DNA of 44,315 nt from Planctomycetota bacterium (GTDB taxonomy: Bacteria; Planctomycetota; PLA2; JAEUHO01). The stretch lies in NCBI GenBank assembly GCA_965223505.1, contig CBDCWP010000032.1, forward strand, positions 1-44,315. Direction: 5' to 3'. The first letter of the stretch is position 1, and each line of letters opens with the position of its first letter. A program made the translations under genes and the position numbers. Shown here piece after piece: positions 1 to 44,315 of this stretch. A model generated the notes under the pieces. The model was not told where the DNA came from, did no database searches, and was given only the letters and a program-made list of their open reading frames with translations.

Positions 1-13
1 TCGGTTCCTTGAG
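1..13. repeat. Terminal overlap (TCGGTTCCTTGAG) identical to 44303-44315; circular assembly junction
   Basis: First 13 nt equal last 13 nt; tape-measure frame continues across the join (...ALTQGTE|SVVDEGTTQ...). Confidence 0.9.
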
Positions 14-1271
14 TGAGCGCGTTCTTGCGGGCCCCGCCCGCGGCTTGGCCAACAGCCTGGAGCGCCGAGAGTCGATCCAACGGGACCTTGCCCACACGTG
101 CCATTCGCTCGATCTCGAGCGCGGCCTCCCTCGCAGCCTTCTTCCACTGACGGAACGTGCGCTCGACCTCCTTTGCCCCTTTCCCGGCGAACGCATCCTC
201 GAGCGACTTCATAGCCTTGCCGGCGCGCTCGTCCAGATCACTCTGGATCTTGTTGATCTCGTCATTGACCGTGCTCAGCGCGCCCTTGATCCCGAGACGC
301 TCGCCGACCATGTGAAGCGACGGATTCATGAACTCGTTCACGTCATGCGCGAGACCTGCGAGCTTCACCAGGCCCTCGGCGATATTCGCCAGCACCTTGA
401 CGATGCCCGCCCCCATGAGCGTGAACCCGGCCCCGAGACCATCGACAACGTCCTTCGCGGTCGCGACCGCCTTCGCAACCTCCTCGACGGCGTCCACGAC
501 CATCTCACCCATGTTGCCGCCTTCAGTCGCGGTCTCGATGAAGCTGTCCGCGATCCCCTTGATGAACGGCGCGAGCTCGACCGACACCTTCTGAATGAGC
601 GCCTCGAGGACGATCCCGGTCTCGGTCAGAGAGTTGTTAGCAGCCTCGACTTGAGCCGCGTCGAGGCGAGACAGACTCAGGCCGAGCCTCTTCATTCGCT
701 CCTCGACGCGCTCGATTTGCTCGGCACCGCCGCGTAGTGTGTTGACGAGCGCGACGCCCTCTGAATCGAAGAGCTTGAACGCGAGCCGGACACGGTCACC
801 CTGGCTCGTCACGTTCTCCATTGCGTCCGCGATGGTCTTGAACTGCTCGTCGACAGAGAGTCGGGAGAGCTTCTCCGCGTCGAGACCGAGTTCCTTGATC
901 GCACCCCGCGCCTCGCCCGTTCCCTTCGCGGCCTCCGCAACACGACGCGTCATGCGCTGCAGGCCGAGTCGCATCTGGTTGACCTGCACTCCCGTCAGCT
1001 TGCCGGCGGCCTCGAGCGCCTGCATCTTCTCGGTCGCGATACCAAGACGATCAGACCACTTCGCAGTGGCGTCGATCGACTCCATCGTGCGCTTGATCCA
1101 GATCGTCAGACCGGCCGCGCCTAGAGCCGCGGTGAACCGGTTCAGAACGAGACTGGCGCCAGGAATCGACTTCACGAACCTGTTGAGATCGCGACGCGCG
1201 CTCTTGATCTTGCCCGTGAACTTGCGCGTTCGCGCCCGCAGAGCAACGTCAAGGGTCCCGATGTTCGCCAT
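1..1271 (-). CDS. Tail tape measure protein, N-terminal part (continues at 44302)
   Basis: ATG at 1271 directly after GT stop; MANIGTLDVALRARTRKFTGKIK... Ala/Gly-rich helical protein; open to window edge; position after tail chaperones. Not in ORF track because it runs off the edge. Confidence 0.92.
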   Translation of the reverse strand, partial: MANIGTLDVALRARTRKFTGKIKSARRDLNRFVKSIPGASLVLNRFTAALGAAGLTIWIKRTMESIDATAKWSDRLGIATEKMQALEAAGKLTGVQVNQMRLGLQRMTRRVAEAAKGTGEARGAIKELGLDAEKLSRLSVDEQFKTIADAMENVTSQGDRVRLAFKLFDSEGVALVNTLRGGAEQIERVEERMKRLGLSLSRLDAAQVEAANNSLTETGIVLEALIQKVSVELAPFIKGIADSFIETATEGGNMGEMVVDAVEEVAKAVATAKDVVDGLGAGFTLMGAGIVKVLANIAEGLVKLAGLAHDVNEFMNPSLHMVGERLGIKGALSTVNDEINKIQSDLDERAGKAMKSLEDAFAGKGAKEVERTFRQWKKAAREAALEIERMARVGKVPLDRLSALQAVGQAAGGARKNALTQGT

Positions 1272-4735: not shown

Positions 4736-5206
4736 CTACGCGATCGTGGAAGCCGGCGTGAGCGAGTCGTACTGGTGCGTCGGCTCCTGACCGATGTACG
4801 CCACCACGGCCTCGTCGGTCGCGGTGCCCATCGTGATGCGCAGCGCGACGTAGCGCAGCGCGAAGCCGGCGTCCTCGGCCTCCTGGCGGAGTTCCTCCGC
4901 GGTGACCTCCAGAACGCCCCAGTCGCCGACCGCGTCGGCCGCGAGCGCACCACTGTCCTTGAGGACGGTCAGGTTGCTCCCGGCCTGGTCCGTCGCGCCG
5001 ACGATCTCGAGCTTCGTGATGCCGCTCGTGGCGATGGTCGCCATGGCCGCGCCGACAAAGCGGCCGAAGTCGCGCATGTCGAACCAGCGCTCGGTGGTGC
5101 CTCCGTCCGGCGTCGTGACGGCCGCGGCCGTACCACCCGGATCGTGGTCCCACATCTCCATCTTGTTGCGGGACCGGAAGTGCTGACTTGCCTGGGGGGA
5201 TGCCAT
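4736..5206 (-). CDS. Hypothetical virion protein (capsid-associated)
   Basis: 156 aa, RBS AAGGAG, directly downstream of capsid genes. Confidence 0.6.
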   Translation of the reverse strand: MASPQASQHFRSRNKMEMWDHDPGGTAAAVTTPDGGTTERWFDMRDFGRFVGAAMATIATSGITKLEIVGATDQAGSNLTVLKDSGALAADAVGDWGVLEVTAEELRQEAEDAGFALRYVALRITMGTATDEAVVAYIGQEPTHQYDSLTPASTIA

Positions 5207-5235
5207 CTAGTGGTTCTCCTTCTGGGGACGCCCGG

Positions 5236-5523
5236 CTACTCGCCGTCGTCCTCTCGATGCGCCTGGATGGCCTCGGTCAAGGTCGCAACCGTGACCTTGC
5301 CCAGGTCGTCCTTCGTGGGCTCCTTGCCGAGTTCCTCGGTGTAGAGCGCGACCAGCTCGGCCTTCTTCGTGGGAAGGCTGTCGCCGGCGTCATCGCTCTT
5401 GTCCTCGAGCTCCCCGACCCAATGTTCCTTGAGCCAACGAGCTGCGCGCTCGTCGCTCACTTCGATGACCTCGCCCTCCGGCGCACCGCACCGGGAGGCG
5501 TTGAGGACTCGTACCTTCTTCAT
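5236..5523 (-). CDS. Small head-associated protein
   Basis: 95 aa; GEVIEVSDERAARWLK N-terminal motif common after HK97-type capsid genes. Confidence 0.6.
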   Translation of the reverse strand: MKKVRVLNASRCGAPEGEVIEVSDERAARWLKEHWVGELEDKSDDAGDSLPTKKAELVALYTEELGKEPTKDDLGKVTVATLTEAIQAHREDDGE

Positions 5524-21165: not shown

Positions 21166-21514
21166 GCCGCCCTCCGTGTGTCGCCCACATCGGCTACATT
21201 TGTCGGCCTAGCGCACGTTTCAAACGAGACAGACTGGACCGCGCCGTGGTGACACCCACGACGCGGCCCCAAGAACGGAGCCCCGTGCGCAGAAACCCCG
21301 CCCCTGAGTTCCAGTCTGGAAAGATCTCCCCGCAGTTCTTCGAGCGCCGCCTCGCCCACCACATGCGGATGGTGATCAAGCTGCTTCGTCGCGCAGATCG
21401 AGAAGGCTGGAATCTGCATCTCGACAGGGGGAGATGAGAGGTCGCAGCGGCGCCCGTTCGTCGCCCGGTTGGGTAGGCCGCGGACGTTCCGCGGTACCCG
21501 ACGGCAAACAGGTT

Positions 21515-21586
21515 CCAAGCCGGCGGGATTCGAACCCGCAACAGCAGGGGTTCCAGCCCTGCATGCCGCCGTTGCATCTCGGCCTG
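21515..21586 (-). tRNA. Atypical tRNA-like gene, anticodon GGA, short variable loop
   Basis: CAGGCCG-AG-ATGC/GCAT D arm-CAGGG CTGGAAC CCCTG-CTGTT-GCGGG TTCGAAT CCCGC-CGGCTTG-G. Confidence 0.75.
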
Positions 21587-21973
21587 GAGCACGCTGAGCG
21601 CTCAAGCGCCCTGGCTTTCGCCGCGCCGCGTGTCCGTCCACGCCGCGCCGCTGCGTATCGAAGGAAGCCGCCCGCGATCAACTGACCTGTGCGGGCTCTC
21701 CGCGGATTGCGGAGCACGGGGCGGCTCGACGTGGGCTCGGGGAATGTTCCCCAGAATTCCCGAGAAACGATGTCAGGTCGAATCGGCCTAGTTCGTACTC
21801 ACGGTGGGAATACGAAGTGTGTGGACGAGAAGGTGCAACCGCTGAGGGAGCGGGCGCAGGGACCGAACGGGTAGCTTCCCGGGCATCTCCGTCTCTGTGC
21901 TCGTCCCCAGCCTTCATGGGGAGGTGACCGTGGAAGGTCTCGACACTGACGTCTCGCTGGTCGACTGAGGGAC

Positions 21974-24937: not shown

Positions 24938-25177
24938 GTGCATGCACGCCGTGCATGCACGCCTCGCAAAGCCCCATTTGTTCAGTGCTGTTTTGCGCTC
25001 TAACCGCGCCGTCAATCGTAAGTAGAGCCCAGATAGTTGCGTGTTTGCGGGCGATCTTGCATGCGGATTATGAGTCCCTGCTCTAACCAGCTGAGCTACA
25101 GGCCCAAGGCTATTAATAGGCGTTTGCGGGCGATTTCGGGGGTGCGGAATTTTCACTGCATGCACATTTGCATGCAC
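24938..25177. other. attP with arm-type repeats
   Basis: TGCATGCAC pairs at 24938-24960 and 25157-25177; GTTTGCGGGCGAT at 25043 and 25122; flank a tRNA fragment directly upstream of the integrase. Confidence 0.8.
25065..25105 (-). tRNA. 5' half of tRNA(CAU), Ile2/Met type; att core fragment
   Basis: GGGCCTGTAGCTCAGCTGGTTAGAGCAGGGACTCATAATCC then similarity ends; no T arm or 3' acceptor strand. Confidence 0.85.
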
Positions 25178-25196: not shown

Positions 25197-26220
25197 ATGT
25201 CCGCATGGATTCTCCCCCGCGGTAAGCGTGGTGTTTGGCATCTGTTCTGGCGTGAGGGCGGCCGAGGAAGCCGAGCCACGTCGCGATCGCTCAAGACCAC
25301 CAACGAGCGCGTCGCCAAGCAGCTCCTGCACGAGTTCAAGGTCGCCCGCGGCGAAGCAGATCTCCAACGGTCGTCCGCCCTCCGAGGCCCGGGAGCGCTT
25401 CTTCAGGCACCTGGCCTTCCTCAAGCGTAGCCCGGACACGATCAGATTCTACGAGCAGAAGCTCGGGCCGCTGTTCGACGCCTGGGGCGAGATCCCGCTC
25501 CATCGCTGGTCTCGGTCGATGCTCGAGGCGCACCTCGCAGAGCGCACGTGGGCGCCCCGTACGACGCAGATGTTCCTGGGCGCCTGCCGGCGCTTCCAGC
25601 GCTGGTGCGACGACAGCGGGATCGAGTGCGCGGACTTCGTCGGCAAGCTGCGCGGGCCGGCCGTCAGGGCGAAGGAGCGCGCGACGCCTCACCGCGGACC
25701 AGGTCGCCGCGCTCCTGGAGCATCGCCACGGGCACTACCTAGAGTTGGCGATCGCGCTCGGCGTGTTCGCCGGGCTCTCGCTCGGGGACCATCCGGGCGC
25801 TCGAGTGGGACGACGTCGATCTCGACGTCCGCCTGATCAACAAGAGCCGGTCCAAGACCGGCATCCCGATCAGAGTTCCGATCATCCCGCAGCTCGATGA
25901 GATCCTCCGCCGACATCGGGCCGTTTCGGGGCCGGTGTGCCGCGGACTGCCCGGTGTCCGACTCGTCGCTCTCCAAGGCCCTGCAGCGCGCCCAGGAGGC
26001 CGTCGGGATCGAACGAGCGCCCCGCGGCCAGAACGGCTTCCACCGCCTGCGACACACGTTCGCGACGCGGCTGGGAAGCCTCGGGGTCCCCCACGGAGCG
26101 ATCCGCCGCCTGCTTGCGCACGCACCCGGGAGCTCGATGACAGATCAGTACGTGCAGAGGGACGATTCGCAGGATCGAGCGGCCATGGCAGCGCTTGCCG
26201 AGGCTATGAGGGCGCCCTAG
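25197..26220 (+). CDS. int: Tyrosine recombinase/integrase (split by about four indels)
   Basis: N-terminal arm-binding domain (RSLKTT), SAM-like domain, ALEWDDVD, RSKTG, FHRLRHTFAT, LLAH...MTDQY. Confidence 0.9.
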
Positions 26221-26231
26221 GCCTTGGGTCC

Positions 26232-26270
26232 GGTCCCCGGCGCCGATGGATGCGCCGACGCCCGGGGACC
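26232..26270 (+). terminator. Hairpin after integrase
   Basis: GGTCCCCGG...CCGGGGACC just after the stop; no U-tract. Confidence 0.4.
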
Positions 26271-26589
26271 ACCAGAAACGTCGTGTGCCTGACCGGGGTA
26301 GGCCCGTGCTACAAGACTTGTCGGCCGAGAAGGGCCTGAGCCGGGCCCAACTCGGAAACCGATCTGCAGAACCAGATCGAAACGCGACCTACTGATCTTA
26401 CGGACAGGAACGACAGTCGCGGGACGGGGCAGGGAGAGCAGAACGGATTGCTCTCTGACACCCCTGATCAGACGTGGACCGAAGAGAGGTCCCGGCACCC
26501 CCGCTTCCTTCGAAGCACCCAGCGCCGTGGGTACACGGCTGCCTGCGTGAACGCAGGAGTGAGGAGGTGATGTGCATGCCGAAACCCGG

Positions 26590-27486
26590 TGCTGGGTCAG
26601 TTTGAAATCGCCTGTTATCTTGGGCTCTTTGTCCCTATTCCATGCGGGTAGGAGGCCGATCAGGTCCTTTGTGGTCCAGACGCGACTGGTAAGCCCGTTG
26701 GCCATCGCGGGTGTCGCGCCGTTCAGACTCTCGTGCTTGCTGCACCAGTTGTAGTGCGTGTAGTGCAGGTTGAGGGCGTAGCCGAAGTTCTCGACCTTGC
26801 GGCTGTGGCCGTTGGTGAGGCGAGTCATGCGGCGCATGCCCATCCTGAGCCCCAGGTTGAAGCGCTCGACGTAGGACGTGCTGGCCTCGGCCACCTTGGG
26901 ATTGCCGCAGACGCGCTCGCGCTTGACGTTGGTGACGATCGGCGGCGAGTAACGGTTGTCGACACCACTCCAACGTCTGTTGGGCGTGCTGAAGTTCTTG
27001 ACGACGCGGGGCGTAGTCCACGTCCCCACCGAAGGCCACGACGACGCCTGTGTGGTACGCCCTTAGCCCGTCCGTGTTCAATGTGATGCGGTGGGCCCAG
27101 CCGCTTTTGTAGGTCGCACAGCAGCGCCATGGGCTGCCTCTTGGTCGCGGTTGCCGAGCACCCAGGACGGGACGATCTTCGTGTCCATGCACAGGGCCGT
27201 CCAGACCCACACGTTGCCATAGCCGAACACGCCCTGCTTGTCCCGAGGCACGTTGCGCTCCTTCATGCCGCAGAACGCCCACGCCTCGTCGGCTTGAATG
27301 TGTGTGCAAGGGCAGATTGCGCAGCCGCTCATGCTGAAAGAGGCCGCAGGCGATCCCCACGTCCCGGCTCAGCTTCTGAATCGTGTTCTTGGCTGCGCCC
27401 GCAATCCGCGACGTGGCACGAATGCTCATGCCTTCCACGAGACACGACAGAATCTGCGCGCGTCGCCTATCGCTTAGTCGATTCAT
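26590..27486 (-). CDS. IS1-family DDE transposase (indels)
   Basis: LVEGMSIRATSRIAG HTH; IQADEAWAF; WVWTAL; NTDGLRAY; STSYVERFNLGLRMGMRRMTRLTNGHSRK. Confidence 0.9.
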
Positions 27487-27492
27487 AATGAC

Positions 27493-27521
27493 ATTATGCT
27501 TGAGCGATCAAGCAATGTCAA
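27493..27521 (-). promoter_or_regulatory. Transposase promoter TTGACA-N17-CATAAT with palindromic operator in spacer
   Basis: Near-consensus hexamers; TGCTTGA-N4-TCAAGCA overlaps spacer; ATG 6 nt after the -10 (leaderless). Confidence 0.8.
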
Positions 27522-27525
27522 GCGG

Positions 27526-27891
27526 CTACGGGGGCTTGTGGTTCATGTGCTGGCGAATCATCTTGCGTAGATCAACCCAGAAGTCCATTGGCACAAGTCC
27601 ACGGAACTTCCGTCTTGGGTCGTCTGGGATTCCCCCGGTTGGAATTGTCTCAAGATAGAGAAACGTGTCCTTCGACAACCTGAACTGGGGGATATCGTTT
27701 TTGCGAAGATGCAAAAGCAGGTGCCACTTCTCGGCCCACTGTCGGCCCGCCCAAGGCGGAGCACCAGTTCCGTAAATGACTGGATGCGCGCCGCCCGGCT
27801 TCTTGGGCGCAAGAACGATCACCAAGCGCTTCTTGGCACCTGCTAACGCCCAGAAGGCTCGCATGGGGAAGAACGGAGCCTCTTCAAGCAT
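27526..27891 (-). CDS. IS passenger, hypothetical protein
   Basis: 121 aa, lower GC, packed in IS operon. Confidence 0.55.
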   Translation of the reverse strand: MLEEAPFFPMRAFWALAGAKKRLVIVLAPKKPGGAHPVIYGTGAPPWAGRQWAEKWHLLLHLRKNDIPQFRLSKDTFLYLETIPTGGIPDDPRRKFRGLVPMDFWVDLRKMIRQHMNHKPP

Positions 27892-27900
27892 AGTGGCCGC

Positions 27901-28170
27901 TTAAAAATCCGGGTCAGCCTCAGCACGGGCGCGGGTTTCGTCGAACCTCGACGTCAGTTCCCAGAGTTCGTCAATCTCCGTATCCGAGAGCGCCGGATAC
28001 TCGCGGGCCATCTCAATCAGCTCTTCGTGTGTCGGCCCTTGGTTGTCCGCACTATCCACGTCGCCCGCCCCGGTTGAGATCAAGAAGGTGGAAGCTGCAA
28101 TCGGCGCGAGGTCGATCCTTAGGGACGAGTCGGCCTCTATGATGGACTTCGGATCTGCGACAATGTTCAC
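27901..28170 (-). CDS. IS passenger, acidic hypothetical protein
   Basis: 89 aa, GGGG RBS, adjacent to upstream stop. Confidence 0.55.
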   Translation of the reverse strand: MNIVADPKSIIEADSSLRIDLAPIAASTFLISTGAGDVDSADNQGPTHEELIEMAREYPALSDTEIDELWELTSRFDETRARAEADPDF

Positions 28171-28172
28171 TT

Positions 28173-28487
28173 CTAGTCCCCCTGCTTTTGCTTTGCGTTC
28201 CAGCGGCCAAGATTCGTGGTGAGCGCGTCAATGAACTTCTGAATGCGCTCAGGCGCCAGAACGTACTGCCCAACGCAGCGAGCCTCGACATGCTTGATCT
28301 CTTTGGCCTGCTCCTCTTTCTCCTCGTCGGTTCCGAGTAAGAGAGGTGGGTAAACCTGGAAAAAGCGGACGAGGAATTCGTGGTCCGTATGCTGCACAAG
28401 CATGTTTGAGATGTGGACCGGCCCCTCGTCATCGGGGATGTCCCACTTAATCGGGACTTGCTTCTCTGCCTTCTGTTCGTCAGGCAC
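28173..28487 (-). CDS. IS passenger, DUF3467-like protein
   Basis: HISNMLVQHTDHEFLVRFFQVYPP...ARCVGQYVLAPERIQKFIDALTTN; GGAG RBS. Confidence 0.7.
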   Translation of the reverse strand: MPDEQKAEKQVPIKWDIPDDEGPVHISNMLVQHTDHEFLVRFFQVYPPLLLGTDEEKEEQAKEIKHVEARCVGQYVLAPERIQKFIDALTTNLGRWNAKQKQGD

Positions 28488-28550
28488 GCTCTATCTCCAA
28501 GGTGGGCCCGGAAGTATATCCACCCTGTCGGCAAATCGTGGCCCGTGGGA

Positions 28551-28808
28551 TCACTTTGACTTGCGCTTCCCCCATCGAGCCTGCGCAGCCTTCTTAGCAA
28601 TGGCCTTACGGCGAGCCGCAGACAGGCTCTTGGCGCGGGCTGGTCCGCCCTTCTGCCCGCCCAGACGGCCAAGCGCGACCGCAGCGGGGTTCTTCCCCTC
28701 GTCTGCGGGCTTCTGCTGGCCAGTGGTCTGGCGGACGATCCGCGCAGCGGCTTGGTTGGTATCCTCGCGCTTGCGGGCGGCCTGTTTCTTGCTTGACCGT
28801 TTAGGCAT
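28551..28808 (-). CDS. Small basic 'histone H1-like' IS-associated protein
   Basis: MPKRSS...DTNQAAARIV...KNPAAVALGRLGGQKGGPARAKSLSAARRKAIAKKAAQARW. Confidence 0.85.
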   Translation of the reverse strand: MPKRSSKKQAARKREDTNQAAARIVRQTTGQQKPADEGKNPAAVALGRLGGQKGGPARAKSLSAARRKAIAKKAAQARWGKRKSK

Positions 28809-29177
28809 GCCGCCATTGAACCATGGCGACCACGGAGATGCGTAGTCTTGCTCATCGCGGCCCTTCAAACGGGCCGCGCAGGTCGGTCGAACGGCCCAAT
28901 TCAAAGTAACCCAGCACCCGAAACCCTGCAGGACGAAAACCGTCAAGCGGAAGATTCGAAAGCCGAAGCCGCGCTCTCAACCGGGCGCAGTCAAGGTTCC
29001 CGCTCACACACGCCGAAAGCCGAAGTGCTAGCGCACGTCGGTTGATGGCTACGCAAGTCGTCGAGCGGCGGTGACCCTGAACAAGCTCCGCCACCCGGCG
29101 CACGCCGGGGCCTCTCTTCGTTTCACGTCAAAGAGCCAATCGACGGTCTCAGGCAGGGCCCGGTCCTGCGCACGCTT

Positions 29178-29250
29178 GGCGGCGTGGCCGAATGGAAAGG
29201 TGCCTAGACTTGCAATCTTGGATTCGGGGGTTCGATTCCCCCCGCCGCCT
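29178..29250 (+). tRNA. Atypical tRNA: Cys-like body, anticodon loop CTTGCAA (UGC)
   Basis: GGCGGCG/CGCCGCC acceptor, U73, GCCGAATGGAAAGGT D arm, CCTAGA/TCTTGG stem, GGGGG TTCGATT CCCCC T arm; no encoded CCA. Confidence 0.85.
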
Positions 29251-29489
29251 GTCACACAGCCATGGGCCGGGCCTTGCCTGAGAACGTCGGTTGATTCGAA
29301 AGAGCAGATCGCGAAAGCCCTGTCGACTGAAACGCAGCGGAAGCCCAAGCTCTTCCGCCAACCCCACTCCCACGGCTCGCGGGCTCACTCCCGCGCAGCC
29401 CTGCCGGACCCTCGTTGCGCTCCTGAGACTAGTATCGCTCACCCACAATAGCTAGGTCATCAGGCCAGCGATCGCGGTGAATTCGGACG

Positions 29490-29511
29490 AAAAGCCCCAT
29501 GTAGGGTTTTT
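29490..29511. terminator. Bidirectional intrinsic terminator
   Basis: AAAAGCCC-CATGTA-GGGTTTTT between convergent units. Confidence 0.65.
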
Positions 29512-29524
29512 GCGCACGAAACGG

Positions 29525-31269
29525 TCAGGAGACTCCAACGCCCTTCGCCAGCACCCTGCGGTTCTTCAGGTAGGCGCTCGCGAGCTTCTTGACGTGGTCC
29601 GGGTCGACCTCCCGGATCACCTTCTCGCGCTTCGTCGGATCGTTGACCCCCTCCAACTGCGCCTTCTTCAGGCCCAGGACGTCGACCATGATCGGGTCGG
29701 AGCCGAACTTCGAGATGAGGTAGTAGGCGAAGACCGCCCTCTCCTGGCCGTCGCGAGCGACCCGACCGACGCACTGCTCGATGACAGCCGGCGACCAGTC
29801 CAGCTCGCCGATGACAGCCGTCGCGCAGCGCCTCTGGAGCCCGTCAAGCCCCTGGCCGCTTCGAAGCGAGATGATCAGGACGTCGGTGTCGCCGTCCATG
29901 AAGCGGGCCATCTCCGCGCCCTTCTTCGCGGGGGACTCCGAGCCCGTGTACATCGCCGGGTTGAGGTCCTCGAGCATCTCCAGCCAGATCCCGTAGACCT
30001 CTCGGTGCCAGCCGAACAGGACCACGGGCTCGCCGTGCTCCTCGACCAGCATCCGGACGAACGCTGCTACGTACGGAGCCTTGTCGACGCCCGTCGCCTG
30101 GCGCAGGGTGTTCGAGAGCTCCGAGCTGGCCGTCATCACGTCCCAACCGGACGCGTTCTGACTCAGGATCTTCTGGGCGAGCTCGACCGCGGTCCCTTCG
30201 ACCGCCTTCAGAGCCTTCGACTCCTCCTTGCTGTCGATCTCCTCGATGATGTGCTGCGGCTCCGTGATCTCCCGCCCACGTCCTTCCGCGTTCGGCGAAT
30301 GAAGATCCCCAGCTCCCGAAGGTACGAGCCGAAGGCCTCCGGGTCCTTCAGCTTGGCCTTCCCCTGGTAGCCCCACTCCTGGCACCACTCGATGTGGAAC
30401 TCCCCACGGGTGCCCAGCACGTTTGGTGCGAGCACGTCGTAGAGGTTGTAGAACTCGCCGCCGAGATTGAAGATCGGCGTTGCGCTCAGGCCCATGCGGT
30501 AGCGGGTCTGCTCGGCGACGCGAGATGCCGCCCAACCCTTCGTGCTCGATCTGCCTGTCCGGAGCTCCTGTACCTCGTCGAAAACGACGGTCTTCAGCTT
30601 GCCGGCCAGGTAGTCAGCCCAGCCTCCGAGCTTGTGGTAGCTCGCGATCAGGACGTCCGGATCCCGTCCGAACAACTTCGGGAGCTCGTAGGGATCGCCC
30701 TTCTTCAACGTGTGGACGTGGAGGCCGGGAAGGAATCTCTCGACCTCGCGTTCCCACTGGCACTGGCTCCTGCGTGTCGTCGGGTGCGCGAGGTGAGCCT
30801 GCGCAACAATCAGCGCCGGGCGTGCCTTCGGGTCCGCGATTAGCGTCAGCGCCGTGACAGTCTTCCCAAGGCCGACAACGTCGCCTACGAGAAGCCCGCC
30901 GTTGTTGCGGCAGAGGTCGGCCGCCTGCACCTGGTAGTGGCGCGGTGGGAGCGCCATCTCGACGTCTCTCCCCTCGTAGCTGTCGTCCATGATCCGGAGA
31001 GAACGCTCGACGCGTTCGTCAAAGGCCCGCGCGCCGCGCTTGAGCAGTTCGATGGCGTGGGTGTGACCGTCGTCGCCGAACAGCTGCAAGTCGTATCGGG
31101 TCAGGAGCCACTCGAGGTCCCGGCAGTTTTCCTCCGTGGCAGAGATCACGAGCTCGCCGCGCCGGCGGCGCTCGACCTTGCCGAAGATCCGCTTCACACG
31201 GATCGCGACGTGGGGCTCCACCTTCAGGTGCCAGCGCCCGGATCGGTACTCGACGGTTCCAAGGCTCAT
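29525..31269 (-). CDS. SNF2-family helicase/ATPase (one indel near 30270)
   Basis: HYQ, GDVVGLGKT, VVFDEVQ, LSATPIFN, FIRRT, GQGLDGLQ, ELDWSP..IEQCVGRVARDGQ. Confidence 0.92.
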
Positions 31270-31625
31270 AGAGGGCTCAGGTAGATCACCCACACGGGCT
31301 TGCCGTGGAGCGTTCTTGCGATGCCGCGGTGCATGGACTTGGTCGTCACCAGGACTGCGCCCTCGATCTCGTCGTGACCGAGGTAGCGGTGCAGCTGCCG
31401 TGTCACGTGGGTCAGTCCCATGTCGACCTTCACCTCGACCGCAAGGCCCTCGACGAAGAAGTCGACGATGTCCGTCGAACTCAGGCGCTCCTCTCGGGCG
31501 AACTGGATGTCAGCGAGCAGCAGCGCGTCGTCGATCTCGTCCTGGAGCTCAAGCTCGTCCTGCCAAGAGCGGCCGGAAAGGCACTGCAGCGCGTCACGGA
31601 CGCGGATGGCGGTCTTCTCGATCAC
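31266..31625 (-). CDS. Small PD-(D/E)XK nuclease-like protein
   Basis: REERLSSTDIVDFFVEGLAVEVKV...QLHRY; coupled to helicase. Confidence 0.75.
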   Translation of the reverse strand: MIEKTAIRVRDALQCLSGRSWQDELELQDEIDDALLLADIQFAREERLSSTDIVDFFVEGLAVEVKVDMGLTHVTRQLHRYLGHDEIEGAVLVTTKSMHRGIARTLHGKPVWVIYLSPL

Positions 31626-43399: not shown

Positions 43400-44302
43400 C
43401 AAAGGCCCTTCTGGTTGCGGATCATGCGACCGACCGTCGGATCCGTTGCAACCGTGCGACGAACCATCTCGGCGAAGTCAGACTGGCTGGTGAGCGCGTC
43501 GGATTGGCGCGCGTCAACCGAGAGCGTGAGCTGAACGGGCGACGTACCGCCGCCCGGCTTCGCCGGTCACCCGCCCGGACCGCACGCGCCGAACGAGGGA
43601 ATGTCGAGCGGGGGCAGGTCCGGGCTGCCCGTAGCGAAGTCGTTCGGCCCGAAGATCGGGCCGCTGAACCCGCCCCCGCCTCCGCCACCCCCAAAGGCGC
43701 TGATCGCAGTACCCACGATTCCGCCGACACCGCCTCCGCCACGGCCACCGCCGAAGATCGACGCCATCAGGTTCGTGATCCCGCTCGACACGATCTGGTT
43801 GATCAGGGAACGGAGAAGCGCGTCCATCGCCTGCTTCGCGATATCCGACGCGTTCTCGAATCCACTCGAGATTCCGTCGACGATGATGTCGCTCAGGCCG
43901 CCCCCGAGCGGAACCTCGATGTTCGAGACGAACTGCTTGGCCGTCTCTGGAGCCGTTTCTGCGATCGCGCGGCCCGTTACGGACTGAAGCCGGCCGATCA
44001 ACGCGTTCGCTCTCGCCGAGTCGATGCCCAGGTCAGCCGCACGCCTCCGAAGGTCCTCCATCTCGTGCTGAATCGCCAGCTGCCGGCGCATCTCGTCCGA
44101 CGTCGCGGTCTCAAGCGCAATGCGCCGCTCGATACTGCGGATGAAGTCCTCCTGCGCACGTGCCTGATCGGCGAGCTGTCGTGCGATGTCCTCGAGCTCT
44201 TGTCGCCGGCGCTTGTCGAGCGCAAGCTGCCTCTCTGTGACCTCGACGCCCTGCCTGAGGCCCGTAAGGACTCGCTGGGTGGTCCCCTCATCCACCACGG
44301 AC
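43399..44302 (-). CDS. Tape measure protein, C-terminal part, with in-frame TGA at 43567-43569
   Basis: In frame with 1271..1; after the TGA the same frame stays open 55 codons to a TGATG overlap with the next gene. Confidence 0.85.
43536..43566 (-). promoter_or_regulatory. Candidate bacterial SECIS hairpin
   Basis: UGA-CCGGCGAAGC-CGGGCGGCG-GUA-CGUCGCCCG; GGU at +19..+21. Confidence 0.55.
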
Positions 44303-44315
44303 TCGGTTCCTTGAG

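What the first reader, a model, noticed from the sequence alone, without database searches (positions are those of the whole stretch)
26289..29511. IS-masked ornate RNA unit: hairpin array + basic peptide + clamped tRNA
Seen: removing the IS and one TSD joins 26320-26587 to 28927-29511 into a ~850-nt + strand unit bounded by a weak promoter and a terminator. It has eight back-to-back stems (CCGAG..CTCGG, CGATCTG/CAGATCG, CGCGAC/GTCGCG, GAGAGCA/TGCTCTC, GGACC/GGTCC, GCTTC/GAAGC, GCCGTG/CACGGC, CCTGCG/CGCAGG), one 38-aa ORF, more stems, a tRNA in a 30-bp helix, then further stems. G-U pairs favour the + strand. Established: phages encode large ornate RNAs near tRNAs (GOLLD, ROOL), but I do not recognise those motifs here. 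Inference: an undescribed large ncRNA/RNP system.
Basis: partly seen in the sequence, partly recalled or inferred. Interest (0 to 1): 0.8.

Follow-up and report, generated by a model that had tools for sequence, protein, structure and literature searches.

The report
IS-split structured phage tRNA unit
A temperate phage carries a roughly 960-base non-coding stretch, now split by a jumping gene, in which two unusually long stems enclose a small RNA region and a tRNA-like gene; it is probably a structured RNA precursor, but no relatives were found to prove it.

Summary
The window is a circular ~44.3-kb temperate phage. A 2331-bp IS1-like element (26588-28918, 8-bp duplication) splits the 965-nt non-coding gap between integrase and SNF2 helicase.

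With the IS removed in silico, the gap folds far better than shuffles: z -6.3 on the + strand, -4.15 on the - strand.

Two features are not chance. One is a 32-bp stem enclosing the tRNA-like gene. The rest of the genome holds 38 such repeats in 5.11 Mb; this gap holds two in 965 nt. All six wobble positions are G-U on the + strand.

The eight small hairpins are only modestly enriched (top ~1.5% of genome windows). The promoter and terminator are not supported.

The gap is not attP. The real attP core lies at 25065-25105 and matches the host tRNA-Met 5' half. No Rfam family other than tRNA matches.

My best reading (0.45) is a + strand precursor RNA whose long duplexes act as RNase III-type processing stems. 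No homologue was found in any collection searched, so covariation and expression remain untested.

The parts
26232..26270 (+). 9-bp G+C hairpin just after the integrase stop (26220); no T-run follows
   Evidence: pair probability 0.91; sequence
26325..26456 (+). Four local stems: 26325-29/26351-55, 26360-66/26373-79, 26383-88/26416-21 and 26433-40/26449-56, with GAAAC linkers after the first two
   Evidence: hairpin density in the top ~1.5% of genome windows
26471..26496 (+).
   Evidence: probability 0.99; score 17; 25 pairs: 23 WC, 2 G-U
26503..26557 (+). Three small hairpins with 4-nt loops: 26503-07/26512-16, 26524-29/26534-39 and 26542-47/26552-57, inside the loop of stem A
26561..26587 (+). 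GAGGAGG word and the first six codons of the 38-codon basic ORF; the ORF is cut by the IS after codon 6
26580..26587 (.). Left copy of the 8-bp target-site duplication
26588..28918 (-). IS1-like insertion sequence (2331 bp) with transposase and small passenger ORFs on the - strand. This copy has 5 extra single letters and 1 substitution compared with the C20 copy
28919..28926 (.). Right copy of the 8-bp target-site duplication
28927..29028 (+). Remaining 32 codons and stop of the 38-codon Lys/Arg/Pro-rich ORF; holds a 12-nt exact direct repeat (28957 and 29014)
   Evidence: no relative
29104..29129 (+). Right arm of long stem A
29133..29166 (+). 5' arm of long stem B (the tRNA clamp)
29178..29250 (+). 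tRNA-like gene: anticodon UGC, C3:G70, U73, no encoded CCA, Cys-type D arm, and a T arm plus 3' acceptor identical over 22 nt to the host tmRNA 3' end
29264..29297 (+). 3' arm of long stem B
29298..29511 (+). Trailer with hairpins 29337-43/29352-58, 29374-83/29390-29400 and 29439-43/29476-80, and a weak A/T-flanked hairpin 29490-29511 next to the helicase stop (29525)

Best explanation
Before the IS landed, the 965-nt gap between the integrase stop (26220) and the helicase stop (29525) was one non-coding transcription unit read on the + strand. It consisted of two adjacent long-stem domains. In domain A, a 25-bp duplex (26471-26496 with 29104-29129) closes about 270 nt that carry small hairpins and a ribosome-binding-site-preceded 38-codon basic ORF. 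Domain B begins 3 nt after domain A; in it a 32-bp duplex (29133-29166 with 29264-29297) closes a 73-nt tRNA-like gene.

I infer that the two duplexes, each longer than two helical turns, work as RNase III-type processing or stability stems, as do the stems that bracket 16S and 23S rRNA in rRNA operons. They would release a pre-tRNA, then trimmed by RNase P and 3' nucleases, and a ~300-nt small RNA or mRNA.

The IS now holds the arms of stem A 2.3 kb apart and truncates the ORF. In this copy domain A is probably dead, while the clamped tRNA is intact.

Shown: the anatomy, its rarity and its strand bias. Inferred: transcription, cleavage and any function of the products.
For: Joined fold: MFE -455.7 kcal/mol against a shuffle mean of -390.2, z -6.30 on the + strand and -4.15 on the - strand. 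The tRNA with its clamp alone scores z -6.05 versus -3.55.

Both long stems have pair probability of at least 0.98 in the ensemble of the joined sequence.

Rarity: there are 2 inverted repeats of score 17 or more (gap 20-400) in 965 nt, against 38 in the other 5.11 Mb, or 0.0074 per kb.

The clamp is the strongest leader-trailer duplex of the 66 tRNA genes, and 0.5% of random controls reach it.

Strand bias: of 57 pairs in the two stems, 51 are Watson-Crick, 6 are G-U and none is A-C. Duplex energies are -48.6 and -60.7 kcal/mol on the + strand against -41.5 and -49.3 on the - strand. The tRNA is on the + strand. GAAA occurs 13 times and TTTC once, an asymmetry reached by 0.01% of 10,672 genome windows, and the GAAA words are largely unpaired, between helices, in the fold.

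None of the 20 open frames of 35 codons or more in the joined gap has the phage's coding signature of GC3 at or above 0.78 with low GC2 (compared).

The host encodes an RNase III-family protein.

The right part, which holds both arms of stem B and one arm of stem A, is confirmed letter for letter by an independent run contig.
Against: There are no homologues, so no covariation.

The scan found no + strand promoter and no pattern-grade terminator.

The stems are also real inverted repeats in duplex DNA, and the - strand still folds at z -4.15.

Counting only the gapless repeats as defined on DNA, the wobble tally is 4 G-U, 0 A-C and 2 other, which is about p 0.06 and therefore weak.

Seven of the 13 GAAA words sit as in-frame Lys codons of two basic ORFs, so the asymmetry may be a coding relic (and my reading of the frames).

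The tRNA lacks G3:U70 although its anticodon is alanine, so it may not be chargeable.

Host tRNA genes show no such stems: their mean duplex energy is -52.8 against -54.9 for controls. The second phage tRNA has only an 11-bp flanking repeat that is not significant, reached by 11% of controls.

The IS insertion shows that at least this copy tolerates loss of domain A.
Confidence: 0.45

Rival explanations
1. One integrated, ornate large non-coding RNA of a new class, about 0.9 kb with an embedded tRNA. It would act as a whole, like GOLLD or ROOL, rather than being cut into parts.
For: Size, phage location and an embedded tRNA parallel GOLLD. [quoted passage not shown] The joined fold also predicts outer long-range pairings, 26281-88/29512-19 and 26384-26413/29412-38, at probability 0.92-0.99, which would close the whole unit. 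The many A-rich GAAA linkers also fit.
Against: No Rfam large-RNA model matches either half at E up to 5. The outer pairings are short and gapped, and I did not test them against shuffles. There are no relatives, pseudoknots or covariation to examine. The IS insertion is tolerated.
Confidence: 0.15
2. Largely relic DNA: an ordinary phage cargo tRNA together with decayed remains of small Lys/Arg/Pro-rich genes and old duplications. The stems would be leftovers without a present function.
For: Two basic ORFs (38 codons across the joint; 54 codons from a TTG at 29291-29452) share repeated words: 12-mers at 28957 and 29014 with an imperfect third copy at 29338, and 15-mers at 28948 and 29288. The small-hairpin array is only in the top ~1.5% of windows. 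The IS sits in the gap without obvious cost. No relatives retain it.
Against: Two 25-32-bp near-perfect repeats, one centred on a tRNA within 2 nt, are very unlikely leftovers. No ORF has a coding signature or a relative. All wobble positions fall on the tRNA's strand.
Confidence: 0.22
3. A DNA-level element. The two inverted repeats could be recombination or protein-binding sites: short invertible segments, regulator operators, or a strand-specific initiation signal for replication next to the helicase module.
For: Inverted repeats of 18-34 bp flanking 100-300 bp are typical of invertible switches and operator pairs. The paralogous element on C39 has an 18-bp perfect repeat pair downstream of its integrase, each arm holding a palindrome, around a promoter-like word. 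Exact 12-mer direct repeats are present. The - strand fold is also non-random.
Against: The arms of stems A and B share only a short apical word, so one binding protein is unlikely. The enclosed 97-nt segment is a complete tRNA gene in register with the arms. No strand-switch joint was reported in the run contigs, but those are contigs and cannot show rare forms. The wobble and GAAA strand bias is not expected for duplex DNA sites.
Confidence: 0.12
4. The gap is the phage attachment site (attP), with the tRNA-like gene as the core and the repeats as integrase arm sites. This was my own first reading.
For: The gap lies next to the integrase. The T arm plus 3' acceptor of the tRNA-like gene is identical over 22 nt (24 of 25) to the 3' end of the host tmRNA gene, a classic target. 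All 14 related loci that hold the core read the same tmRNA 3' end.
Against: The real core lies elsewhere. Window 25065-25105 is the reverse complement of the first 42 nt of host tRNA-Met (C8:150836-150877), at 98% identity and E 2.8e-12, 92 nt upstream of the integrase start. Host attB contigs pile up exactly there in the runs. Paralogous integrases in the host also sit directly beside tRNA genes. The two differences from tmRNA fall on positions 70 and 73, so a crossover there would destroy the alanine identity of tmRNA.
Confidence: 0.03

Closest known systems
GOLLD and ROOL large ornate RNAs of phages and prophages
   Same: Both are large (several hundred to over 800 nt), non-coding and phage-borne, and lie next to or around tRNA genes. 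GOLLD sometimes carries tRNAs in its linker (passages read in bioRxiv 10.1101/2024.12.08.627333).
   Different: There is no match to any Rfam model other than tRNA. The conserved GOLLD 3' domain was not recognised. Here the tRNA is enclosed by its own 32-bp stem, and there are no relatives, so no family.
rRNA-operon processing stems cut by RNase III (16S and 23S each bracketed by a long leader-trailer duplex; recalled textbook knowledge, not from a call)
   Same: Long duplexes are formed by sequences flanking a stable RNA, side by side in one transcript, each longer than two helical turns. The host has an RNase III gene.
   Different: The enclosed units are a single tRNA-like gene and a ~270-nt hairpin and ORF region, not rRNAs. 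Cleavage is untested. Host tRNA genes do not use such stems.
Phage lambda sib retroregulation and phage T7 RNase III sites (recalled)
   Same: A double-stranded RNA element downstream of a phage int gene or between phage genes could set transcript ends and stability.
   Different: In lambda, attP lies between int and sib. Here attP is upstream of int, so integration would not uncouple the stems from int.
Phage T4 tRNA cluster with co-transcribed small stable RNAs (recalled)
   Same: Phage tRNA is made from a longer precursor together with structured non-coding RNA of unknown role.
   Different: I know of no long clamping stems in T4, there is no sequence relation, and here there is a single tRNA.
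IS1-family insertion sequences
   Same: Terminal inverted repeats, an 8-bp target duplication, two copies in the genome, and a 294-aa DDE transposase with a weak IS1 match.
   Different: It carries three to four extra small ORFs, and the NCBIfam score of 56 bits is far below the 100-bit cut-off. It interrupts the feature and is not part of it.

Membership tests
GOLLD RNA (Rfam) | Match to the family covariance model, including the conserved 3' domain | tested here: not met
   cmscan of the whole window at gathering score gave only 2 tRNA matches. Both halves at E up to 5 gave no large-RNA family. The IS-free joined sequence could not be given to the tool.
GOLLD RNA (Rfam) | Phage or prophage location near or around tRNA genes; length around 800 nt | tested here: met
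   Phage modules by Pfam, embedded tRNA, 965-nt gap. The family description comes from passages read.
ROOL RNA (Rfam) | Match to the family covariance model | tested here: not met
tRNA (RF00005) | Cloverleaf and conserved core scored by the covariance model | tested here: met
   55 bits against a gathering score of 29; ARAGORN call
tRNA-Ala (functional identity) | G3:U70 wobble pair and A73, the AlaRS identity elements (recalled) | tested here: not met
   The acceptor reads C3:G70 and the discriminator is U (sequence printed). The D arm resembles phage tRNA-Cys/His/Gly genes.
attP of a tyrosine integrase | Core identical to the host attB, next to int | tested here: not met
   The significant core match is at 25065-25105 to host tRNA-Met (E 2.8e-12), outside the finding. 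Inside the finding there is only a 22-nt match to the tmRNA 3' end, with mismatches at positions 70 and 73.
RNase III processing stem | Duplex of about 20 bp or more formed by sequences flanking the released RNA | tested here: met
   25 and 32 pairs, probability at least 0.98
RNase III processing stem | Cleavage by RNase III in vivo or in vitro | not testable with these tools
   Only the presence of a host RNase III-family gene is shown. No RNA run was listed.
MITE or other repeated mobile element bounded by the inverted repeats | Several copies in the genome; target duplication directly outside the repeats | tested here: not met
   Neither half of the gap has another copy in the 5.15-Mb genome. 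The 7-nt direct word near stem B is offset by 5 nt.
CRISPR-repeat mimic (RNA anti-CRISPR; recalled concept) | Hairpin and handle resembling the host's CRISPR repeat; host carries CRISPR-Cas | tested here: not met
   Only a chance-level CRISPR-DR56 match (16.6 bits, E 1.8). No Cas1 was found in the assembly, which is 92% complete. My repeat scan found no CRISPR-like array.
Type I toxin mRNA with 5'-3' fold-back (hok-like; recalled) | Small hydrophobic membrane peptide | tested here: not met
   By my count from the frame, the 38-codon ORF has 15 Lys/Arg and 7 Pro, so it is strongly basic and not hydrophobic.

The most novel reading that the evidence does not exclude
A previously unseen class of large phage non-coding RNA in which a tRNA-like module, whose T arm and acceptor copy the host tmRNA end, is held in a 32-bp clamp beside a second clamped domain. 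The whole ~0.9-kb molecule would act as one particle, a functional analogue of GOLLD with its linker tRNAs, for example presenting or hiding a tRNA/tmRNA mimic during infection.
Probability: 0.15. Interest if true: 0.8.

Novelty: new variant of a known kind. Interest (0 to 1): 0.5.

Why it matters
If the two long stems are real RNA processing or stability elements, this would be a phage tRNA matured through an rRNA-operon-like route. It would also be a second example, unrelated in sequence, of a large structured phage RNA built around a tRNA, a class whose function is still unknown for GOLLD and ROOL. The case further shows that an IS can hide a long-range helix from any scan that reads contiguous sequence. 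The practical limit is that the unit is a singleton, so it cannot be validated by comparison until IS-free relatives are found.

Tried and rejected
HOMOLOGUE HUNTS, ALL EMPTY FOR THE GAP
- blastn of both halves against 50,697 phage records found nothing.
- The right half against 61 related genomes gave only matches of 41 nt or less, nearly all the tmRNA 3' end, in 26 of 61 genomes.
- Helicase-anchored loci: 9 in viral contigs (0 of 9 with a tRNA, an Rfam hit or blastn similarity); 3 of 400 other genomes of the phylum (0 of 3); 20 in metagenome contigs. Of those 20 I scanned 18 for tRNAs. One, L070, has a tRNA-Met but no integrase homologue and ordinary genes in between. None of the 20 had blastn similarity.
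- Integrase-anchored loci: 4 in viral contigs, 0 with a tRNA.
- The terminase query found no close relative in viral contigs.
- tRNA-based DNA patterns found nothing relevant: 0 hits in viral contigs with a 27-mer; 5 hits with a looser pattern, all ordinary phage tRNA genes; 0 in metagenome contigs; 0 in genome contigs.
- A covariance model of the clamp plus tRNA run over 121 genomes scored 219.6 bits on itself. The best other match was 49.3 bits and covered the tRNA part only; full-length matches reached at most 46.9 bits.
- The 126-aa frame over the tRNA had no protein relatives. The 33-residue ORF part had no Atlas hit of 0.9 or more.
- The gap downstream of the paralogous integrase on C39 has no similarity. 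Its 18-bp repeat looks like an operator pair.

EXPRESSION
No RNA holder was listed: 3 runs from one study, all kept as contigs.

READS
No IS-free joint and no strand-switch joint were reported. These are contigs only, so rare forms cannot be excluded.

OTHER IDEAS DROPPED
- attP in the gap, rejected.
- Both phage tRNAs being clamped: the second has only an 11-bp repeat, which is not significant.
- CRISPR-repeat mimicry.
- A tandem-repeat array.

LITERATURE
Four full-text searches turned up no paper describing a phage tRNA enclosed by a long processing stem. That covers only the held library and those search terms.

TECHNICAL
One search timed out and was replaced by smaller runs. The 200-nt sliding scan never contained the whole clamp, so its near-zero values around the tRNA are uninformative.


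Full report
CONTEXT

The window is the whole of contig C32 of a 5.15-Mb, 44-contig genome. An earlier scan note calls the organism an uncultured planctomycete; I did not check that. The contig's two ends overlap by 13 nt, and a long - strand frame stays open and in frame across the join. The contig is therefore a circular element of about 44.3 kb.

Pfam on 68 candidate ORFs shows a tailed-phage layout. It includes small and large terminase, portal, S49 protease, major capsid, head-tail connector and completion proteins, tail proteins, a sigma factor, a beta-clamp-like protein, a D12 methylase, an SNF2 helicase (29525-31293, - strand) and a tyrosine integrase ending at 26220 on the + strand. 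The finding occupies the gap between the convergent integrase and helicase genes.

THE IS

The IS runs from 26588 to 28918 (2331 bp). It has terminal inverted repeats and an 8-bp duplication at 26580-26587 and 28919-28926. A second copy on contig C20 is flanked by a different 8-bp duplication. It differs from the phage copy by five single-letter gaps and one substitution. That copy has an intact 294-aa transposase with a weak IS1-family match, NF033558 at E 4e-15 and 56 bits against a 100-bit cut-off.

ASSEMBLY QUALITY

Three runs from one study hold the phage; none is recorded as RNA. Their contigs lack one letter at each of 25375, 25687, 25789 and 25950, which are the places where the integrase frame breaks in the window. 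They also lack the same five letters by which the C20 IS copy is shorter. Leaving the four integrase letters out opens a 371-codon frame, the same length as a paralogous integrase on C39. The integrase is therefore probably intact, and this stretch of the window carries insertion errors.

A 2622-nt run contig covers 27311-29933 with no difference after 27632. The right half of the finding is therefore confirmed. The left half (26221-26587) is only thinly covered.

WHERE attP REALLY IS

My first reading was that the gap is attP. The T arm and 3' acceptor of the tRNA-like gene match the host tmRNA 3' end over 22 exact letters, 24 of 25 in all. That tmRNA end is identical in all 14 related loci that hold it.

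The reading failed. Pieces of the integrase find a 55-65% identical paralogue directly after tRNA-Phe on C39, and a 40% one beside tRNA-Thr on C30. That pointed me to the other side of int. Window 25065-25105, 92 nt upstream of the integrase start, is the reverse complement of the first 42 nt of host tRNA-Met (98% identity, E 2.8e-12). In the runs, deep contigs pile up on exactly this stretch, and one runs on into the sequence that lies upstream of that host tRNA gene.

The gap in question is therefore not attP. The tmRNA-like end of the phage tRNA stays unexplained. Its two differences from tmRNA fall on positions 70 and 73.

THE SMALL HAIRPINS

All eight stems are present. Counting perfect stems with 3-8-nt loops, 26320-26560 holds 8 of at least 5 bp, 4 of at least 6 bp and 2 of at least 7 bp. 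Of 85,759 genome windows, 1.4%, 1.6% and 3.4% respectively do as well.

As a 300-nt piece the left part folds at z -4.47 on the + strand and -2.52 on the - strand. In 200-nt windows it scores only -1.8 to -2.75, against a phage background of mean -0.39, sd 1.33 and minimum -6.09 over 152 strand-windows.

THE LONG STEMS

The tRNA clamp is 29133-29166 with 29264-29297. It has 32 pairs in blocks of 3, 9 and 20 with two 1-nt internal loops, and it leaves 11 and 13 unpaired nt beside the tRNA. Folded with its clamp, the tRNA scores z -6.05 on the + strand and -3.55 on the - strand. Its leader-trailer duplex of -83.5 kcal/mol is the strongest of the 66 tRNA genes, and 0.5% of 1500 random controls reach it. 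Host tRNAs as a group do not differ from controls.

It pairs 26471-26496 with 29104-29129: 25 pairs in blocks of 8 and 17, at pair probability 0.99. Its right arm ends 3 nt before the clamp's left arm begins.

On a gapless score (+1 for a match, -2 for a mismatch) the two repeats score 17 and 18. The remaining 5.11 Mb of the genome holds 38 repeats of score 17 or more with a 20-400-nt gap, or 0.0074 per kb, whereas this gap holds two in 965 nt. The joined gap folds at z -6.30 on the + strand and -4.15 on the - strand, with 40 shuffles each.

WHICH STRAND

Several lines point to the + strand.
- The tRNA is on the + strand.
- In the two long stems, 51 of 57 pairs are Watson-Crick, 6 are G-U and none is A-C. 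On the - strand all six would therefore be mismatches. The duplex energies drop from -48.6 and -60.7 to -41.5 and -49.3 kcal/mol.
- That tally leans on helix ends chosen by + strand folding. Within the DNA-defined gapless repeats it is 4 G-U, 0 A-C and 2 other.
- The + strand holds 13 GAAA against 1 TTTC, and 9 CGAAA against 0 TTTCG. Only 0.01% of 10,672 genome windows of the same size are as lopsided. The GAAA words are largely unpaired, between helices, in the fold.

Against an RNA reading of the GAAA signal: 7 of the 13 words are in-frame Lys codons of two basic ORFs (38 codons across the joint; 54 codons from a TTG at 29291). The exact 12-mer repeat at 28957 and 29014 lies inside the first of them. 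Neither ORF, nor any other of the 20 frames of 35 codons or more in the joined gap, shows the phage's coding signature. Neither has relatives.

BOUNDARIES

The scan found one promoter-like site in 26100-29700, and it belongs to the IS transposase on the - strand. There was none on the + strand ahead of the unit. The 29490-29511 hairpin (3 G-C, 1 G-U and 4 A-U pairs) did not meet the terminator pattern. The claimed promoter and terminator are therefore not supported. Planctomycete and phage-sigma promoters would not be seen by this scan.

KNOWN FAMILIES

At gathering score, Rfam finds only the two tRNAs in the window. At E up to 5, the two halves give only the tRNA and chance-level matches. The tRNA-like gene scores 55 bits. 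It reads anticodon UGC but has C3:G70 and U73 and no encoded CCA. Its D arm resembles phage tRNA-Cys/His/Gly genes, and no host tRNA is close to it (at best 54 identical letters).

I found no CRISPR-like array and no Cas1 in the host assembly, and no tandem repeats in the gap.

RELATIVES

Every route I tried came back empty; the searches are listed under Tried and rejected. The phage has no close relative in the collections I could reach. The best helicase identity is 58% and shows no synteny. No terminase relative was found at the tool's sensitivity. Covariation, the test that would settle the question, could not be run. No RNA data were available either.

INTERPRETATION

The anatomy is two adjacent domains, each closed by a duplex longer than two helical turns. 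One holds a tRNA-like gene. The other holds about 270 nt with small hairpins and a ribosome-binding-site-preceded mini-ORF. This most resembles the way rRNA operons bracket each mature RNA with an RNase III stem (recalled knowledge), and the host has an RNase III-family gene.

I therefore put 0.45 on a + strand precursor with processing or stability stems, and 0.15 on a single integrated ornate RNA. The second would parallel GOLLD, whose linker can carry tRNAs according to passages read. I put 0.22 on relic DNA around an ordinary cargo tRNA, 0.12 on a DNA-level role for the repeats, and 0.03 on attP.

In every reading the IS has separated the arms of stem A and cut the mini-ORF, so domain A is probably inactive in this copy while the clamped tRNA remains whole.

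VERDICT

The core observation (IS-masked, + strand-biased, highly structured non-coding unit with a clamped tRNA) is largely confirmed. It is strengthened by a long-range stem that only the excision reveals. The claims about the promoter, the terminator and the weight of the small hairpins are not supported. The interpretation as a new RNA/RNP system remains possible but unproven. I rate it a new variant of a known kind, with interest 0.5.

Noticed in passing
window 25065-25105 (with repeats around 25040-25145): The attP core is the reverse complement of the first 42 nt of host tRNA-Met(CAT) (C8:150836-150877), 92 nt upstream of the integrase start. The phage therefore supplies the 5' half of the tRNA on integration, which is the less common arrangement. 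Repeated words flank the core. The window lacks one letter of the tRNA here compared with the run contigs.
   Followed up: partly
window 25375, 25687, 25789, 25950; 26617, 27008, 27096, 27131, 27310; 27632: The window has single extra letters relative to run contigs and to the C20 IS copy. They break the integrase into four frames and the IS transposase into several. Leaving out the four integrase letters gives a 371-codon open frame, so these look like assembly errors in a low-coverage contig.
   Followed up: yes
window 1-13 and 44303-44315; ORFs 3-1271(-) and 43567-44313(-): The contig ends overlap by 13 nt, and a long tail-gene-like frame continues in frame across the join. The contig is a complete circular phage genome.
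   Followed up: partly
window 29525-31293 (- strand): The SNF2 helicase is split into two ORFs of 361 and 336 aa that overlap by 328 nt. Relatives have one ORF of 553-752 aa. The run contigs show no indel here, so the shift may be real or programmed.
   Followed up: no
window 21443-21655 (- strand): A second phage tRNA-like gene (21514-21587) has anticodon GGA but only 74 nt, so it lacks the long extra arm of serine tRNAs. It is flanked about 58-60 nt away on each side by an 11-bp perfect inverted repeat. The flank duplex is not significant (11% of controls reach it).
   Followed up: partly
window 29224-29249 versus G000:C42:12241-12265: The T arm and 3' acceptor of the phage tRNA-like gene are identical over 22 letters to the 3' end of the host tmRNA gene. 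That end is invariant in 14 related genomes. The differences fall on positions 70 and 73, and no explanation was found.
   Followed up: partly
G000:C39:305577-307402: A paralogous 371-aa integrase (55-65% identical) starts 13 nt after tRNA-Phe. About 500 nt downstream of it, an 18-bp perfect inverted repeat pair, each arm holding a palindrome, flanks a promoter-like word. It is probably an operator pair of another integrated element.
   Followed up: partly
G000:C40:191174-192297: There is a tight array of 11 tRNA genes on one strand, some unusually short (69-71 nt). It may be a tRNA island or part of another mobile element.
   Followed up: no
window 5201-5400: This was the most strongly folding 200-nt window of the background scan: z -6.09 on the + strand, and -3.4 to -3.5 on the gene (-) strand. 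It lies within the 3' end of the small ORF (5236-5523) that follows the capsid gene.
   Followed up: partly
window 27526-28811 (- strand, inside the IS): The IS carries three to four small passenger ORFs besides the transposase. One has a weak DUF3467 match and one is a very basic ~86-aa protein. This is unusual cargo for an IS1-like element.
   Followed up: no
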